Of a stretch of DNA of 64,000 nt, positions 4,085 through 17,801 are shown piece after piece; the stretch's first letter is position 1, and each line of letters opens with the position of its first letter. The position numbers and the translations under genes were made by a program. This DNA comes from a virus (Duplodnaviria > Caudoviricetes): positions 1 through 64,000 of IMG/VR virus record IMGVR_UViG_3300046615_000208. One strand, 5' to 3'. Under the pieces are notes generated by a model. It had not been told where the DNA came from and searched no databases. It worked only from the letters and a program-made list of their open reading frames with translations.

Positions 4085-4153
4085 CTCGTTGGGCAGATCG
4101 CATCTGTCTAGGATGGTAACCTGTTCCGGATGCATACGGACAAACAGCCCCAA

Positions 4154-4225
4154 GCCTGCTTAACTCAGTGGCAGAGTAGCTGCATGACTCGCAGCCGGTC
4201 AGAGGTTCGAATCCTCTAGCAGGCA
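4154..4225 (+). tRNA. tRNA-Val(GAC), unusual anticodon loop ATGACTC
   Basis: GCCTGCT/AGCAGGC; GCTGC-ATGACTC-GCAGC. Confidence 0.85.
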
Positions 4226-9122: not shown

Positions 9123-9214
9123 CGATTCAGGCTGGAGTTTACTCCAGATTATCTCTCCATAGCATCCTGCTCTGCGATTGGACCAGTTATGCCGTACTGG
9201 ACAAAAACGGCTTC

Positions 9215-9287
9215 GCCTCTATGGTCTAAACGGCAATGACTCGCGTCTTTTACACGTGAAATTCCAGTTCGAATCTGGGTGGGGGCA
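9215..9287 (+). tRNA. tRNA-Lys(TTT)
   Basis: CGCGT-CTTTTAC-ACGTG. Confidence 0.9.
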
Positions 9288-9291
9288 CAAT

Positions 9292-9320
9292 TTGACACTC
9301 TCGCGAAGAGATGTTAAACT
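9292..9320 (+). promoter_or_regulatory. sigmaA-type promoter of the 9358 gene and downstream RNA
   Basis: TTGACA-N17-TAAACT with TG extension. Confidence 0.7.
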
Positions 9321-9357
9321 AGATACAACAAAGACAAACGACGAAAGGTAAATTATC

Positions 9358-10089
9358 ATGACTAAGCTTAATCAGATTGTTGCAGTGGAAAAGGGCGAAA
9401 AGGCTCGCGCACTCACCGAGGAAACCGTACTCCACCGCGAAGTCCAGAAGACCCCTCTTCTCGCCGGTATCTCCCGTACCTACAAGCCCAAGGACGACGA
9501 TGGCGACCAGCTTCCCGCTGAGTCTACCCGCGTTCAGGTCAACGCCGAGGACATCCTCGAAAAGCTGGGCAAGACCCTGACCAATCTCTTCGACATCACC
9601 CTCACCAAGGAAGTTGCCAACACCAAGGCGACCGCAGATGTAGTTGTTGATGGCAAGACCCTCATCAAGGGCGCTCCGGTCACCTACCTGCTCTTCCTTG
9701 AGAAGCAGCTTATCAACCTCCGTACCTTCGTCGCCAAGCTCCCGATCCTCGATCCGGCTGAGAACTGGACCAAGGACCCGAACACTGGTGCTTGGGCAAC
9801 CGATCCCACCCAGACCGTCAAGACCAAGAAGGTTCCGAAGAACTGGGTCAAGGCTGAAGCTACCGACCGCCACCCGGCACAGGTCGAAATCTTCCACGAG
9901 GATGTCATTCAGGGAACATGGACCACAGTCAAGTTCTCCGGTGCCCTTCCCCAGACCCGAGTCGCGGAACTCACCGAGCGTGTCGATGCTCTGATCAAGG
10001 CAGTTAAGTTTGCCCGAGAAGAAGCCAACAACGCCGACGTTGATGACACCAAGGCAGCTAAGGCTGTCTTCGACTACCTACTCAAGTAG
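9358..10089 (+). CDS. Conserved protein of unknown function (243 aa), linked to the downstream tRNA-like RNA
   Basis: Strongly biased, highly-expressed-type codon use; motifs KLNQIVAVEKG, RTYKPKDDDGDQLPAE, PVTYLLFLEKQL, HPAQVE, KFSGA, VKFAREEAN. Confidence 0.9.
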   Translation: MTKLNQIVAVEKGEKARALTEETVLHREVQKTPLLAGISRTYKPKDDDGDQLPAESTRVQVNAEDILEKLGKTLTNLFDITLTKEVANTKATADVVVDGKTLIKGAPVTYLLFLEKQLINLRTFVAKLPILDPAENWTKDPNTGAWATDPTQTVKTKKVPKNWVKAEATDRHPAQVEIFHEDVIQGTWTTVKFSGALPQTRVAELTERVDALIKAVKFAREEANNADVDDTKAAKAVFDYLLK

Positions 10090-10109
10090 TCCCCTAGATT
10101 CCTACGTGA

Positions 10110-10490
10110 GCGCGTAGGTGCACGAAAGTGCTAGACTGAAGTTGATTCCTCAGACTAAAAAGTATTCTCAGCCCCAGTGGAGGTTCGAATCCTCCCCCTG
10201 CCACCAATTCATGGCAGGGTAGTCCAAATGGTAGAGACAGCCCCGGATACGTATTAGACTCAAGTTATCGCTCAAGTCTTAGTACCGTACCACCCTTGTG
10301 GGTCAACCACTACACTAACTATTTATGAGATAAGGGTTCGATCCCCTTTCCGCCCTCTGAGTCCTCGACTCTATGTAACACCCAAGGGCGGATGGCTTAA
10401 TGGCATAGCGCATAAACTTCAAACTGAAGTGTAGTTTAAACGTATCACAGGGGAATGATGGAAACAATCATGCAAATATGATCAAACATT
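10110..10490 (+). ncRNA. Double circularly permuted tRNA-like (Y-RNA/YrlA-like) ncRNA
   Basis: Two T-arm -> loop-closed acceptor stem -> D-arm modules (10179-10238, 10332-10409), each on a long closing stem. Confidence 0.75.
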
Positions 10491-10492
10491 TG

Positions 10493-10529
10493 GACCCCCT
10501 AGAGTCGGATATGCTCTAGGGGGTCGTTT
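10493..10529 (+). terminator. Intrinsic terminator
   Basis: GACCCCCTAGAG/CTCTAGGGGGTC then GTTT. Confidence 0.75.
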
Positions 10530-10572
10530 CCATTTCCGGGGTATAATGGTTTGTCACCTATTAGGAGAAACC

Positions 10573-10848
10573 ATGCTCAAATCCCTTTGGTCCTCGGTCC
10601 AAAATGACCCTGTATTCATGAGAAAAGTGAACGGATGGGCCGCAATAATCTGGTTCGTAGCCGCATTCCCCATCTGTATTTTCCTTTCCACTTCCGTCCC
10701 TTTCCTAGTTTTCATCTCTGTCTATGCTGTTGTTACAGGACACTGGTCCTCGTGGCAGGCTGCAAGGGTTGAGGTCAGGCAGGAGGAAGAAGCGGATAAA
10801 GCCGAGAAAAAAGGTAAGACAGAATTTGGAGATACGTCTTACCTGTGA
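10573..10848 (+). CDS. Small two-TM membrane protein (possible holin)
   Basis: AGGAG SD; two hydrophobic segments and a charged tail; near the endolysin. Confidence 0.6.
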   Translation: MLKSLWSSVQNDPVFMRKVNGWAAIIWFVAAFPICIFLSTSVPFLVFISVYAVVTGHWSSWQAARVEVRQEEEADKAEKKGKTEFGDTSYL

Positions 10849-11009: not shown

Positions 11010-11432
11010 ATGATTCAAAATCCAGTATACGTAAAAACAAACCCTGACTACATCTACGTCGGGGAAGTCGCGGACTGGACTGACGGGGACACAGTCAAGG
11101 TCGATATTTGGATTTTCCTAGACCTAGGATTCCAAGACTATCAGCACAACCTCAAGAAACACAGCTTCAGGCTCACAGGCATTGACACTCCAGAAAAGGG
11201 AAAACCGGGATACAAAGAAGCAACAGCCTTCAACGAAGAAAATTTCCCTGTCGGAACCGAGATCAGGGTCAAGACCTACAAGATGTCTACAGGATACACC
11301 TCCGGTGAGAAGTACGGAAGATACCTTGCGGACATCTACTCGACGGATATGGACTTCAATCTCAACGAAGCTCTCGTGGCTTCCGGACTGGCCGTTCATT
11401 ACGATGGGGGCAAGAAGTTGACAACTGCCTAG
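11010..11432 (+). CDS. Thermonuclease (SNase-like)
   Basis: DGDT, RLTGIDTPE, KYGRYLA, NEALVASGLA motifs. Confidence 0.9.
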   Translation: MIQNPVYVKTNPDYIYVGEVADWTDGDTVKVDIWIFLDLGFQDYQHNLKKHSFRLTGIDTPEKGKPGYKEATAFNEENFPVGTEIRVKTYKMSTGYTSGEKYGRYLADIYSTDMDFNLNEALVASGLAVHYDGGKKLTTA

Positions 11433-11500: not shown

Positions 11501-13417
11501 ATGTCGCTAATTGCTCCCGTAACCGCACGTGTGTCCCAAGTGTTTGGGGCAAACCCAAGTTCAATTCAGCCTAACGGCCACACCGGTAAAGACTATGCCA
11601 TCCCGATCAACACGCCTGTCATGGCTGCTGGTGCGGGAACTGTTGTGTGGGCTGACTGGGCCACCAAACTCTCCGCGTCTAACAAGTGGTGGATCGCCCC
11701 GGCCTACGCCGGTATCTGCGTCGTCATCGACCACGGAGACGGCTTCCTGACCCTTTACGCCCACCTGAACAGCACTCCGCTGAACATCGGAAACAGGGTC
11801 ACTCAGGGGCAGCAGATCGGCCTCTCAGGCACCACAGGACTCTCTACCGGCCCTCACCTCCACTTCGAGGTGCTGGGCTGGCCGCTACAGCCTTACAACG
11901 GCTTCTACGGGCGTCTGAACCCGGACAAGTACCTGACGACTATCGTTCCGGCAGCGTCTCTCGCCGCCAACCAGCGTAAGGCTGGGGCCGACAACGTGAA
12001 CATGCGTTCCGAACCCAAGTCCAGCGCCAAGGTTCTCCGTGTCATCAATGGGAACACCGTTGAGACATTCACCGGATGGATCGACGGAGAGACTGTCAAG
12101 GGTATCAACATCTGGTACAAAGACGCTCAGGGTTATGCTTGGTCTGGTGGATTCACGTCCCAGTCCACTACGGGCCTGACTAATCTCAACCCGAAGCCTC
12201 CTGTGGTTGTCAATCCGGCTCAGCGTACTGCTGGCACCGATAATGTGAACATGCGCTCCGAGCCGAAGACTTCTGCCCCGGTTATCCGTGTCATCTCCGG
12301 GAAGACCAACGAGGTCTTCACCGGCTACGTGATCGGTGAACCGGTCAAGGGGATCAACGTCTGGTACAAGGATGCTCAAGGCTATGCGTGGGCCGGTGGC
12401 TTCACCTCTCAGGCGACCACAGGTCTGAATAACCTTACGCCAGCACCAGCACCAGCACCAGCACCAGCGCCTAAGCCGGTACCAGTGCCGCCAGTAGTAG
12501 TGCCTGCCCCAACTCCGGAACAGCCGAAGACTGTCGAGAGAACAGTTGTAGACGTAGGTGTACGCGTACGTACTCTACCATACCTGACTGCACCAGTCAA
12601 GGAAGTCCTACCGGCCAACACCAAGGTGACTGTAAAGTCCTTCGTGAACTCCGATAAGGCACTTGACACTTATGTATGGTACGCTTTGGACAACGGATAC
12701 GCTCACGCCTCCGGATTTACTGACCAGACTACATCCGGACTCACTGAGTCTGCTAAGCCTGCTGCACCAGTGGACCCAGAGCCTGAGCTAGGGTACTCCT
12801 TCACTCCGGACTTTGACTTTGTCGAGTACCGACCTGCACATACCGATAACATGGGTGACGGGAACTTCCCGGCCAACCCTGCTATGATTGTACTGCACCA
12901 GATGGACGCGAAGGAGAAGCACCCTTCCCTCGATGGCGTGATCAGCTTCTTCCAGACACCCCGCCCGAATGCACCTACATCGGCTCACTTCGGTGTCTCA
13001 GGTAAGCGAATCGTTCAGTTTGTCTCCCTAAAGGACCGTGCGTTCCACGCTAAGGAAGTTGGCAACAATTACATCGGCATTGAGGTTGACCCACAGGAAG
13101 ACCCGGATACCGTTGAGTCCGTGAAGAAGCTCATTAGGGCTTTGAACGCCAAGTATGGTAAAGTATTCCAGTACATCAAGCACCAGAACGTTCCGGGCAA
13201 CTCCACCTCGTGTGGTAACGATATCCACCTAGAGAAGTACATCGTGGATGCACCTACACCGCAGCCACCTGTGATCGTTGTTCCTCCGATTGTGGACCCA
13301 GAGCCAGAACCGACACCTACCCCGGAGCCTGCTCCAGAGAAGGATGAAGAGTTCGAAGCTCTCGTTGACGATCTCCTAGTTTCCTTGAAGAAGGTTCTTG
13401 TTCATCTGAACAAGTAA
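11501..13417 (+). CDS. Endolysin: M23 peptidase, three SH3-like repeats, amidase_2 domain
   Basis: HTGKD, YAHL, STGPHLHFE; repeated NMRSEPK..WYK..GYAW; IVLH..SAHF..AFHA..IGIE..H..C. Confidence 0.9.
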   Translation: MSLIAPVTARVSQVFGANPSSIQPNGHTGKDYAIPINTPVMAAGAGTVVWADWATKLSASNKWWIAPAYAGICVVIDHGDGFLTLYAHLNSTPLNIGNRVTQGQQIGLSGTTGLSTGPHLHFEVLGWPLQPYNGFYGRLNPDKYLTTIVPAASLAANQRKAGADNVNMRSEPKSSAKVLRVINGNTVETFTGWIDGETVKGINIWYKDAQGYAWSGGFTSQSTTGLTNLNPKPPVVVNPAQRTAGTDNVNMRSEPKTSAPVIRVISGKTNEVFTGYVIGEPVKGINVWYKDAQGYAWAGGFTSQATTGLNNLTPAPAPAPAPAPKPVPVPPVVVPAPTPEQPKTVERTVVDVGVRVRTLPYLTAPVKEVLPANTKVTVKSFVNSDKALDTYVWYALDNGYAHASGFTDQTTSGLTESAKPAAPVDPEPELGYSFTPDFDFVEYRPAHTDNMGDGNFPANPAMIVLHQMDAKEKHPSLDGVISFFQTPRPNAPTSAHFGVSGKRIVQFVSLKDRAFHAKEVGNNYIGIEVDPQEDPDTVESVKKLIRALNAKYGKVFQYIKHQNVPGNSTSCGNDIHLEKYIVDAPTPQPPVIVVPPIVDPEPEPTPTPEPAPEKDEEFEALVDDLLVSLKKVLVHLNK

Positions 13418-17463: not shown

Positions 17464-17788
17464 GTGGATGACCGGTTTCGACAGGTTACCTGAAATAAGA
17501 AACGCAACACGAAACGGACTACATTCGTAAAAGTGGTCAAAACAATAATCGCAAAAAACGATTTCGCACTAGCCGCGTAGGCTAGCCCGGAGACCGAAAG
17601 CCTCGCAGGTCTTCAACGGGTCATCTAGAGGCTACTACGACCCAGCCAACGTAGACGGCAGTCGGAAGAGCTAAGCTACAAAACCTCTGTGGAGTCCTAG
17701 AGCGACACAGTTGACTTAGTCTAGGAATTGTTGTAGAATGTTCTTATGGAAAGTATCTTGGACGGGGGTTCGATTCCCCCCATCTACA
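17464..17788 (+). ncRNA. ssrA: tmRNA, tag (A)AKNDFALAA
   Basis: GTGGATG/CATCTAC with G3:U70, GGTTTCGAC 5' end, GGAC-GGGGG-TTCGATT-CCCCC T-arm, tag ORF 17551-17580 after ATAATC. Confidence 0.93.
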
Positions 17789-17801
17789 CGAAAGGGAGAA
17801 T

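What the first reader, a model, noticed from the sequence alone, without database searches (positions are those of the whole stretch)
10132..10431. Repeated AGACTNAAGT words on the stalks of the tRNA-like RNA
Seen: AGACTGAAGTT (10133), AGACTAAAAAGT (10152), AGACTCAAGTT (10256), GCTCAAGT (10270) and AAACTGAAGT (10421) lie in or beside the internal loops flanking both modules. Inference: iterated recognition sites for an oligomer of the upstream protein, or processing sites analogous to repeat RNA antitoxins.
Basis: partly seen in the sequence, partly recalled or inferred. Interest (0 to 1): 0.7.

Follow-up and report, generated by a model that had tools for sequence, protein, structure and literature searches.

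The report
Hexamer tracks in tRNA-mimic RNA
The repeated AGACT-type words are real: they are units of a conserved six-base repeat that lines the open loops of an undescribed RNA with two tRNA look-alikes. That RNA always sits behind an unknown-function gene (DUF7873) in many phages and bacteria, and the repeats are most likely docking sites for a protein, though no binding has been shown.

Summary
Observation confirmed and sharpened. Four of the five words are units of a six-base repeat, consensus B-A-R-r-Y-U, with A2 and U6 85-99% conserved. The units occupy fixed slots: H1-H4 (10132-10156), C1, C2, C4 (10255-10279) and T0-T1 (10413-10425).

In this window alone the enrichment is modest (11 vs 6.2±2.2). 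In relatives it is strong: z 17.5 in 38 viral RNAs and z 25 in 51 bacterial RNAs, with spacings of only 6, 12/13 and 18/19.

The units do not pair with each other: 45-63% of cells are canonical, against 91-100% in the true helices.

The fourth word (GCTCAAGT) is different. Its GCUCA is one strand of a covarying long-range helix between a 5' box (UGAGCG, 10107-10112) and CGCUCA (10269-10274). That helix closes the loop that the units line.

The RNA and DUF7873 co-occur: 8 of 8 gene-bearing genomes against 0 of 133 in one bacterial order. There is no Ro60 gene. There are no tandem long repeats and no ToxN-like protein, so the ToxI analogy fails.

Best reading (about 0.45): iterated single-stranded docking sites for a protein, probably DUF7873. 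Binding is not shown.

This scan had already noted the same hexamer track on other DNA. I found the system in no paper or RNA library that I could search.

The parts
9292..9320 (+). Sigma-70-like promoter, TTGACA-17-TAAACT with TG extension, in front of the gene-plus-RNA unit
   Evidence: Consensus scan, 10 of 12 matches. The same arrangement stands in L001 and L015. A consensus match only.
9358..10089 (+). DUF7873 protein gene (243 aa), single copy in the 171.7-kb phage genome
   Evidence: Pfam PF25283, E 1.7e-105. One copy in the genome. 2339 clusters at 50% identity. AF2 model pLDDT 95.6 with no clear fold match.
10095..10100 (+). Possible extra unit H0 (UAGAUU) just after the stop codon
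   Evidence: NAR(A/U)UU followed by CC recurs at this place in relatives. Not tested statistically.
10101..10118 (+). Hairpin Pa (CCUACG/CGUAGG). Its loop, UGAGCG at 10107-10112, is the 5' box.
   Evidence: Fold. The box is conserved as GAGCR in relatives.
10107..10112 (+). 5' box UGAGCG, which pairs with CGCUCA at 10269-10274 (long-range helix box:C3)
   Evidence: At least 14 distinct compensatory box/C3 combinations. Fixed-position test 233 vs 202±4.8. Own against foreign C3, Wilcoxon p 8e-11. RNAalifold predicts the helix on its own, with both-side changes at all 5 pairs. The inverted repeat is also seen in the window itself (I11).
10120..10131 (+). Hairpin Pb (GCAC-GAAA-GUGC)
   Evidence: Fold. 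Present in the window's clade and absent in relatives where the box abuts H1.
10132..10162 (+). 5' hexamer track: H1 UAGACU 10132-37, H2 GAAGUU 10138-43, H3 GAUUCCU 10144-50 (7 nt), H4 CAGACU 10151-56, degenerate H5 10157-62.
   Evidence: Slot-wise conservation: A2 92-100%, U6 88-100%. No covarying partner.
10179..10239 (+). Permuted tRNA-like module 1: T-arm 10179-95, acceptor 3' strand 10196-202, ACCA plus loop 10203-12, acceptor 5' strand 10213-19, D-arm 10222-39
   Evidence: Covariation in all helices, 96-100% paired. Weak YrlA match of 20 bits.
10255..10284 (+). Central track: C1 UAGACU 10255-60, C2 CAAGUU 10261-66, C3 AUCGCU 10267-72 (helix strand, not a unit), C4 AAGUCU 10274-79, C5 UAGUA 10280-84.
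   Evidence: units; C3 helix.
10302..10308 (+). Conserved box GUCAACC (AAUCGACC in most relatives); partner unknown
   Evidence: Near-invariant columns in A2.
10309..10316 (+). 5' strand of helix P-tail (ACUACACU), pairing with 10428-10435
   Evidence: RNAalifold and pair counts: 78-92% paired, both-side changes at all 9 pairs.
10332..10411 (+). Permuted tRNA-like module 2: T-arm 10332-48, acceptor 3' strand 10349-55, 30-nt loop, acceptor 5' strand 10386-92, D-arm 10395-409
   Evidence: Covariation.
10413..10431 (+). Tail track: T0 UAAACUU 10413-19, T1 CAAACU 10420-25, T2 GAAGUG 10426-31 (its AGU starts the P-tail 3' strand at 10428-35).
   Evidence: T1 slot: U6 96%, R3 100%, A2 75%. Helix.
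10435..10442 (+). Near-invariant 3' box UUUAAACG (CUUAAACG in relatives)
   Evidence: Invariant columns in A2. Function unknown.
10493..10525 (+). Terminator-like hairpin (12-13 bp) with the conserved loop CGGAUAUG
   Evidence: The same loop sequence stands in relatives. Whether it ends this transcript is not shown.

Best explanation
The words are units of a six-base repeat, B-A-R-r-Y-U, in which A at position 2 and U at position 6 are nearly invariant. The units are kept single-stranded. About ten of them line the loops of a roughly 320-350-nt non-coding RNA that is encoded directly behind the DUF7873 gene and probably transcribed with it.

Four units (H1-H4) and two units (C1-C2) form the two sides of a large loop. 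That loop is closed on one side by the stalk of tRNA-like module 1 and on the other by a long-range helix (5' box with C3). Two more units follow that helix, and two to three lie in the loop between helix P-tail and module 2.

I propose that each unit is one docking site for a protomer or domain of a protein that reads A2 and U6. The most likely reader is DUF7873. The protein would then be laid out in six-base register along the loops and would hold the two anticodon-less tRNA bodies in a fixed geometry.

Shown: the units, their periodicity, their slot-wise conservation, the lack of pairing between them, the closing helices, and the gene-RNA linkage.

Inferred: that a protein reads them, that the protein is DUF7873, and any stoichiometry.
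For: (1) Slot-wise conservation of the pattern, not of the exact sequence, across 75 unique RNAs from phages and bacteria: A2 85-96%, U6 88-99%, R3 and Y5 conserved as classes.

(2) Family-wide enrichment with strict 6-nt phasing: 281 vs 121±9 and 302 vs 95±8; distances 6, 12/13 and 18/19.

(3) The units are not helix strands. A column-pair scan finds only the known helices. A hypothetical track-to-track duplex has 63% paired cells, against 91-100% in the true helices, and its middle positions are unpaired in 16-20 of 24 rows. With 75 rows it has 45-55% canonical cells and z no higher than 2.5. Thermodynamic pairing is spread over many alternative partners.

(4) The units keep their A/U-rich pattern in RNAs of 59-64% G+C.

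(5) The loop geometry is fixed by covarying helices.

(6) Tight gene-RNA linkage. The track-plus-module unit lies just downstream on the same strand in 78 of 91 DUF7873 loci. In 141 genomes of one bacterial order, all 8 with the gene have the RNA next to it (5 with a strong match, 3 with a module match only), and none of the 133 without the gene has a strong match.

(7) Units within one RNA resemble each other at the variable positions more than expected: 0.410 vs 0.381±0.005 after G+C-matched shuffling. This fits one co-evolving reader.

(8) In a divergent bacterial subfamily, and by eye in a Vibrio phage, module 1 is missing or replaced by a short hairpin while the hexamer words stay. In the bacterial subfamily the box:C3 helix stays too. 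So the tracks are a core part of the RNA.
Against: No binding, footprint or structure exists. DUF7873 has no recognisable RNA-binding fold, and its pI is about 6 (family median 6.05), which is unlike a typical RNA-coating protein.

The pattern A-R-N-Y-U is its own reverse-complement class. That would also suit base pairing or a reader of double-stranded DNA, and my covariation test has little power at R3:Y5 because G-U pairs count as canonical.

In this window alone the enrichment is only about p 0.03.

The sequences are related, so the shuffle statistics overstate independence.

Confidence: 0.45

Rival explanations
1. RNA-only architecture. The units are repeated tertiary-structure elements, for example a stack of U-turn-like Y-U-N-A-R turns or receptors for the T-loop/D-loop elbows. 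They fold the loops into a compact scaffold without any protein reading them.
For: Y-U-N-A-R contains the U-N-R pattern of U-turns (established knowledge of anticodon loops and T-loops). The units sit in loops closed by conserved helices. Conserved boxes with no found partner (AAUCGACC, CUUAAACG) point to further tertiary contacts. DUF7873 shows no RNA-binding signature.
Against: No covariation or fixed partner for any unit position. Ten near-identical short motifs are unusual for RNA-only folds, which normally use distinct contacts. The within-RNA homogenisation of units fits a common external reader better.
Confidence: 0.2
2. tRNA-related mimicry. Each unit imitates either the core of a Leu/Phe-type anticodon loop (Y32-U33-N-A-R-R37) or a Leu/Phe codon followed by a purine (Y-U-N then A, as in a T-box specifier). 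The RNA would then engage tRNAs, or enzymes and toxins that act on tRNA anticodon loops, as decoy or sponge, alongside its two anticodon-less tRNA bodies.
For: The phage's own five tRNA-Leu genes have the loops CU-UAG-AC, CU-CAA-AA, UU-GAG-AG, CU-UAG-AA and CU-UAA-AA, which is the unit consensus read from Y5. The triplet Y5-U6-N1 is always a Leu or Phe codon and is followed by the invariant A2 (sequence). The locus lies inside a 42-tRNA array.
Against: The resemblance follows almost automatically from the pattern Y-U-N-A-R. The units are not presented in 7-nt hairpin loops. The system is also chromosomal in at least 582 bacterial species, where a decoy against anti-phage nucleases is less obvious. 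There is no test here.
Confidence: 0.12
3. Processing sites. The units are cleavage sites for an endoribonuclease (the upstream protein as in type III toxin-antitoxin pairs, or a host enzyme such as RNase E) that cuts the RNA into module-sized pieces.
For: The units are single-stranded and A/U-rich, as endonuclease sites often are. The modules have 7-bp acceptor stems, which made M. smegmatis YrlA an RNase P substrate (PMC4201824, read). So some processing of this RNA is plausible.
Against: No tandem 30-40-nt repeat array. The RNA is downstream of the protein gene. DUF7873 matches no ToxN/AbiE-type, PADLOC or nuclease family. Ten phased sites within 25-nt tracks would shred the RNA rather than release defined pieces.
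Confidence: 0.08
4. Imperfect duplex stalk. The 5' track pairs antiparallel with the central track (H1:C4, H2:C3, H3:C2, H4:C1), using the self-complementary A-R-N-Y-U words.
For: In the window, H1 AGACU and C4 AGUCU are perfectly complementary, and H4 and C1 pair 6 of 7 (sequence). The ensemble gives some probability to these pairings.
Against: Only 63% of cells are paired, against 91-100% in the true helices. The central positions are unpaired in 16-20 of 24 rows, and the counts do not exceed shuffles. C3 is taken by the box helix. A duplex with a mismatch at every third position would be unstable.
Confidence: 0.04
5. DNA-level sites (iterated protein-binding sites or -10-like elements on the DNA), or chance.
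For: A-R-N-Y-T is a palindromic class. A2 and T6 are also the two key positions of a -10 hexamer, and the gene's own -10 (TAAACT, 9315-9320) fits the pattern.
Against: The slots are fixed relative to RNA helices of one strand, in phages and bacteria with very different G+C content. Position 1 is rarely the T that a -10 element needs. Chance is excluded.
Confidence: 0.03

Closest known systems
YrlA-class bacterial and phage Y RNAs with Ro60/Rsr (Rfam RF02553; Chen et al. 2014, PMC4201824)
   Same: An anticodon-less tRNA mimic in the order T-arm, loop-capped acceptor stem, D-arm, carried on a stalk and encoded next to its presumed protein partner. The 7-bp acceptor stems resemble those of the RNase P-cleaved M. 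smegmatis YrlA.
   Different: No Ro60/TROVE gene in the 99%-complete phage genome. The Rfam score is 20 bits against a gathering score of 69. There are two modules in one RNA. No GNCGAAN0-1G motif. The hexamer tracks and the box:C3 helix have no counterpart described for YrlA in that paper. The neighbouring gene is DUF7873.
TRAP with its (G/U)AG triplet repeats in trp leader RNAs; HutP with its UAG repeats (from my own knowledge)
   Same: Short single-stranded motifs repeated with a 5-7-nt period, each read by one subunit of an oligomeric protein. This is the mechanism I propose by analogy.
   Different: No TRAP gene (PF02081) in the genome. DUF7873 is 243 aa with an unrelated predicted fold. 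The unit here is A-R-N-Y-U with two fixed bases four apart. The tracks sit in closed loops of a stable ncRNA, not in an mRNA leader.
CsrB/RsmZ sponge RNAs with CsrA/RsmE (from my own knowledge)
   Same: A non-coding RNA that carries many copies of one short protein-binding motif.
   Different: CsrA sites are GGA in hairpin loops without strict phasing. Here the units are phased and unpaired, and the RNA also has tRNA-like modules. No sponge function is shown.
   Same: A protein gene next to a repeat-bearing RNA.
   Different: ToxI is a tandem array of 36-nt units placed upstream of the toxin gene and cut by it. Here there is no tandem array, the gene order is opposite, and there is no ToxN-like or defence-family match.
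Two-piece (permuted) tmRNA
   Same: Permuted order of the tRNA-like domain, with an encoded ACCA after the 3' acceptor strand in module 1.
   Different: The acceptor stem starts G1-C72, G2-C71, C3-G70, so it lacks the G3-U70 alanine identity pair (sequence). A standard tmRNA is present at 17464-17791. The frame Y-U-N/A-R-N is open by construction but is broken by the 7-nt H3 and the extra C before C4.

Membership tests
YrlA / bacterial Y RNA (RF02553) | Reaches the Rfam gathering score | tested here: not met
   20.2 bits against 69, E 0.16, for 10151-10264 only. Nothing else at this locus in the gathering-threshold scan.
YrlA / bacterial Y RNA (RF02553) | Encoded next to a Ro60/Rsr (TROVE) gene | tested here: not met
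   No PF05731 match in the 171,752-base, 99%-complete phage record; the controls rang. The neighbour is DUF7873.
YrlA / bacterial Y RNA (RF02553) | tRNA-like domain in the order T-arm, capped acceptor stem, D-arm | tested here: met
   Both modules, with covariation in every helix.
YrlA / bacterial Y RNA (RF02553) | Conserved GNCGAAN0-1G motif (PMC4201824) | tested here: not met
   No match to G-N-CGAA-N0-1-G in 10090-10450.
YrlA / bacterial Y RNA (RF02553) | Ro60-binding helix formed by the 5' and 3' ends | not tested
   Without a Ro60 gene I did not search for its binding-site consensus. The RNA ends are not mapped.
Type III toxin-antitoxin (ToxIN-like) | Tandem direct repeats of about 34-40 nt in the RNA | tested here: not met
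   Tandem Repeats Finder gives 0 rows at minimum score 30 for 9200-10700. The only direct repeat is a 12-mer, twice, 123 nt apart.
Type III toxin-antitoxin (ToxIN-like) | RNA gene upstream of the toxin gene | tested here: not met
   The RNA (from about 10095) follows the gene (9358-10089) in the window and in 78 of 91 loci.
Type III toxin-antitoxin (ToxIN-like) | Protein of a ToxN/AbiQ-type endoribonuclease family | tested here: not met
   Pfam gives only DUF7873. PADLOC and NCBIfam give nothing.
TRAP-type repeat reader | TRAP (MtrB, PF02081) protein present | tested here: not met
   No match in the phage genome; the control rang in B. subtilis. The host genome is not available.
TRAP-type repeat reader | Nine or more short motifs with a 5-6-nt period in single-stranded RNA | tested here: met
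   About ten units with 6-nt phasing, unpaired. This is a likeness in working principle only.
Cas7/RAMP backbone proteins (6-nt periodic RNA binding) | RAMP/RRM-like fold of the protein | tested here: inconclusive
   Several Cas7 chains appeared at E 0.1-0.35 with the poor first model. With the pLDDT-95.6 model only one was left, at E 0.36, and none was in the wide search.
tmRNA (two-piece) | G3-U70 alanine identity pair and a tag reading frame | tested here: not met
   Module 1 has C3-G70. ARAGORN and Rfam call tmRNA only at 17464-17791.

The most novel reading that the evidence does not exclude
DUF7873 assembles in six-base register on the hexamer tracks and, together with the box:C3 and P-tail helices, builds a Ro60-independent ribonucleoprotein particle. 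The particle displays two anticodon-less tRNA bodies, and perhaps anticodon-loop-like units, to capture or divert tRNA-handling factors. This would be a widespread RNP class in actinobacteria, other phyla and many phages, and I found it in no paper or RNA library that I could search.
Probability: 0.3. Interest if true: 0.85.

Novelty: new variant of a known kind. Interest (0 to 1): 0.68.

Why it matters
A gene-plus-RNA pair found in at least 582 bacterial species and many unrelated phages has no assigned function. It is absent from Rfam 15 and from the papers I could search. The hexamer tracks are its most conserved single-stranded feature, and they persist even where one tRNA-like module is lost. 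They are therefore the natural handle for experiments: mutating A2 and U6 gives a clean test of protein binding. The new box:C3 helix fixes the loop geometry for structural work. If a protein does coat the tracks in six-base register, this would be a new way of building a tRNA-mimic particle. It would also bear on why large phages place it inside their tRNA arrays.

Tried and rejected
(1) Cas7-like reader. The first, poor model (pLDDT 74.6) gave about nine weak Cas7-family rows. This was tempting because Cas7 binds RNA every 6 nt. With the pLDDT-95.6 model they vanished, so I dropped the lead.

(2) Self-association of DUF7873. A three-copy complex prediction gave no verdict (median 0.36, mark 0.42). 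It counts neither way.

(3) Expression. RNA-library contigs hold a roughly 94%-identical relative. One 659-nt contig bridges the 3' half of the gene and the RNA (9727-10355). Contigs from an RNA library can be DNA and show no ends, so this is no evidence of transcription or processing.

(4) Track-to-track duplex: rejected.

(5) My first guesses that C2 pairs with the tail, and that H2 pairs with T0 (I9), are specific to the window and are not kept in relatives.

(6) Hexamers on the gene's ribosome-binding site, a lead from earlier notes. In this window the only upstream unit (TAAACT, 9315-9320) is the -10 of a promoter-like site. Tandem units before the Shine-Dalgarno sequence do occur in other lineages (L029, L031, L041, L072).

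(7) Coding or tmRNA reading: rejected.

(8) Protein leads that gave nothing: PHROGs, PADLOC, NCBIfam, the PDB sequence profile and the ESM Atlas.

I make no claim from it.

(10) No partner was found for the AAUCGACC and CUUAAACG boxes.

Full report
**Setting.** The window is the first 64 kb of a 171,752-base, 99%-complete phage record. It carries 42 tRNA genes and a tmRNA. Its nearest named relatives are Arthrobacter phages Talia1610, Racecar and Mimi, at about 68% nucleotide identity over this locus. Directly after tRNA-Lys there is a promoter-like site, TTGACA-17-TAAACT at 9292-9320. Then comes a 243-aa gene at 9358-10089 that is a full-length DUF7873 (PF25283, E 1.7e-105). After it lies an ORF-free stretch up to a terminator-like hairpin at 10493-10525. 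That stretch holds two circularly permuted, anticodon-less tRNA-like modules in the order T-arm, 3' acceptor strand, loop, 5' acceptor strand, D-arm. Rfam gives only a 20-bit sub-threshold YrlA match, and the genome has no Ro60/TROVE gene.

**The observation.** Exact AGACTNAAGT occurs only twice in 64 kb, and both copies are inside this RNA. The class A-R-N-Y-T occurs 11 times against 6.2±2.2 expected, with spacings of 6, 13, 6, 13, 6 and 12. By itself that is a modest signal.

**Relatives.** I fetched DUF7873 loci from named phages, from viral contigs and from bacterial genomes. In the bacterial collection at least 582 species matched, mostly Kitasatospora, Nocardia, Streptomyces, Micromonospora and Actinomadura. 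The double module follows the gene in most of these loci, including cyanophage Pam2, Klebsiella jumbo phages and Ralstonia phage phiRSL1.

- A 24-sequence alignment (A2) shows that the words are units of a hexamer, N-A-R-N-Y-U, at fixed columns.
- There are four units before module 1 (H1-H4), units C1, C2 and C4 after it, and T1 after module 2. A2 and U6 are 92-100% conserved in the H and C slots (T1: A2 75%, U6 96%), and R3 and Y5 are kept as classes.
- A covariance model of the 5' track, module 1 and the central track (R1) found the full unit in 78 of 91 sources. In its 75 unique rows the consensus is B-A-R-r-Y-U.
- In the track segments the class is enriched 281 vs 121±9 in 38 viral RNAs and 302 vs 95±8 in 51 bacterial RNAs. 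Inter-unit distances are almost only 6, 12/13 and 18/19.
- The sequences are related, so these z-scores are upper bounds. Still, the pattern holds from 38% to 64% G+C.

**Paired or not?** A-R-N-Y-U is its own reverse-complement class, so I tested pairing explicitly.

- RNAalifold leaves the tracks unpaired while recovering both T-arms, both acceptor stems, both D-arms and a long-range helix P-tail (10309-16 with 10428-35). All of these have compensatory changes.
- A scan of all column pairs finds no further covarying stack.
- Hexamer-to-hexamer pairing does not exceed shuffles.
- The formal count for a track-to-track duplex gives 63% paired cells, against 91-100% in most true helices and 78% in the weaker half of P-tail. 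The central positions are unpaired in 16-20 of 24 rows.
- Boltzmann ensembles spread the pairing over many alternative partners.

The units are therefore conserved as sequence, not as helix strands.

**A new helix.** In the window, CGCUCA (10269-10274) is complementary to UGAGCG (10107-10112), the loop of hairpin Pa (I11). Across relatives the two boxes change together. Examples are GAGCG/CGCUC, GAGCA/UGCUC, GAGUA/UACUC, GGACA/UGUCC, UUGCA/UGCAA, GGACG/CGUCC, UAGCA/UGCUA, CAACA/UGUUG and UGGAA/UUCCA, with at least 14 fully paired combinations in all.

- A fixed-position test gives 233 vs 202±4.8.
- An own-versus-foreign test gives p 8e-11.
- RNAalifold, run on 18 divergent sequences, predicts the helix independently, with both-side changes at all five pairs.
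- In most divergent relatives the 5' box abuts H1. In the window's clade it sits in the Pa loop, with hairpin Pb in between.

Consequence: H1-H4 and C1-C2 are the two sides of one large loop, closed by box:C3 and by the stalk of module 1. C4-C5 follow the helix. T0-T2 lie in the loop between P-tail and module 2.

**Link to the protein.**

- The gene and the RNA unit are each single-copy in this phage.
- In 141 genomes sampled from one bacterial order, 8 have DUF7873. Five of these have a strong R1 match 45-70 nt downstream on the same strand. The other three, a divergent subfamily, have a module match 170-190 nt downstream. None of the 133 genomes without the gene has a strong match (Fisher p 1e-7 to 3e-13).
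- In that divergent subfamily module 1 is replaced by a short hairpin, yet the tracks and a compensated box:C3 pair (GGCGC/GCGCC) remain. A Vibrio phage version looks similar: the hexamer words are there, but only one module was found.
- Units within one RNA are more alike at their variable positions than units drawn from different RNAs. The value is 0.410 vs 0.381±0.005 with G+C-matched shuffles, as expected if one co-evolving reader sees them all.

**The protein itself.** With a 91-sequence alignment, AlphaFold2 gives pLDDT 95.6. The model has four long helices plus a sheet with a long beta-hairpin. Neither Foldseek nor the wide structural search gives a convincing relative; the best is an unknown-function C. 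diphtheriae protein, 3kdq, at Z 7.9 and probability 0.82. No PHROG, PADLOC, NCBIfam or PDB sequence match exists. The pI is about 6. So nothing in the protein itself says 'RNA binder'. The case rests on linkage.

**Interpretation.**

- Most likely (about 0.45): the units are iterated single-stranded docking sites read at A2 and U6 by a protein, probably DUF7873. The protein would be arranged in six-base register around the loops and would fix the two tRNA bodies. This works like TRAP or HutP on their triplet repeats, but it is not a member of those families.
- Rival, RNA-only tertiary repeats: about 0.2.
- Rival, mimicry of Leu/Phe anticodon loops or of codon-plus-purine specifiers: about 0.12. 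The phage's own tRNA-Leu loops do read Y-U-N-A-R-A.
- Rival, nuclease sites: about 0.08.
- Rival, duplex stalk: about 0.04.
- Rival, DNA-level sites or chance: about 0.03.
- The ToxI analogy fails on repeat type, gene order and protein family.

**Novelty.** No paper in the searchable library mentions DUF7873. Rfam 15 has no family for the RNA. The closest described system is YrlA with Ro60 (PMC4201824), and this locus fails four of its five defining features as listed there. Earlier agents of this scan had already noted the same hexamer track on other genomes. I re-derived it independently. I add the box:C3 helix, the loop topology, the order-wide co-occurrence test, and the finding that in this window the upstream 'unit' is a promoter -10 rather than a site on the ribosome-binding site.

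Noticed in passing
window 10493-10525; also L001 about 4180-4215, L002 about 4110-4140, and L015, L017, L036 downstream regions: The terminator-like hairpin after the RNA has a loop, CGGAUAUG, that is conserved in sequence across several otherwise divergent phages, while the stem varies. This suggests a recognised element rather than a plain terminator.
   Followed up: no
window 9330-9350; L018 and L001 upstream regions: Between the promoter-like site and the Shine-Dalgarno sequence of the DUF7873 gene, the window's clade has two to three tandem RAACGAC heptamers (for example CAAAGAC-AAACGAC in the window and AACGAC-GAACGAC-AAACGAC in L018). This repeat differs from A-R-N-Y-U.
   Followed up: no
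window 10132-10157 vs 10255-10280: The 5' and central tracks are direct repeats of each other (TAGACTGAAGTT / TAGACTCAAGTT, then a 7-nt spacer, then a unit). The RNA may therefore have arisen by duplication of a track-plus-module unit.
   Followed up: partly
window 10302-10308 and 10435-10442: Two near-invariant boxes (AAUCGACC-like and CUUAAACG) have no identified pairing partner.
   Followed up: partly
window 10203-10206: Module 1 encodes A-CCA right after its 3' acceptor strand. About half of the aligned relatives do too, and the rest have ACU. With 7-bp acceptor stems both modules could be RNase P substrates, as M. smegmatis YrlA is.
   Followed up: no
L167 1370-1560 (divergent bacterial DUF7873 subfamily); L080 (Vibrio phage D505): Some lineages lack module 1 (it is replaced by a short hairpin or was not found) but keep the hexamer words and module 2. 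In L167 the box:C3 helix is kept too.
   Followed up: partly
window 9315-9320: The -10 hexamer of the gene's promoter-like site (TAAACT) has the same fixed A2 and T6 as the RNA units. This is probably coincidence, but it is the same pair of positions that sigma factors read on single-stranded DNA.
   Followed up: no
window 11010-11432 and 11501-13417: Downstream genes: a staphylococcal-nuclease-like protein (PF00565), and a 638-aa endolysin with M23 peptidase, SH3 and amidase_2 domains.
   Followed up: no
G042:C9:34376-34674: In one bacterial genome the RNA unit scores strongly (98 bits), but only a 35-residue C-terminal DUF7873 match with an in-frame TAG lies beside it. This may be a decaying gene next to an intact RNA.
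   Followed up: no
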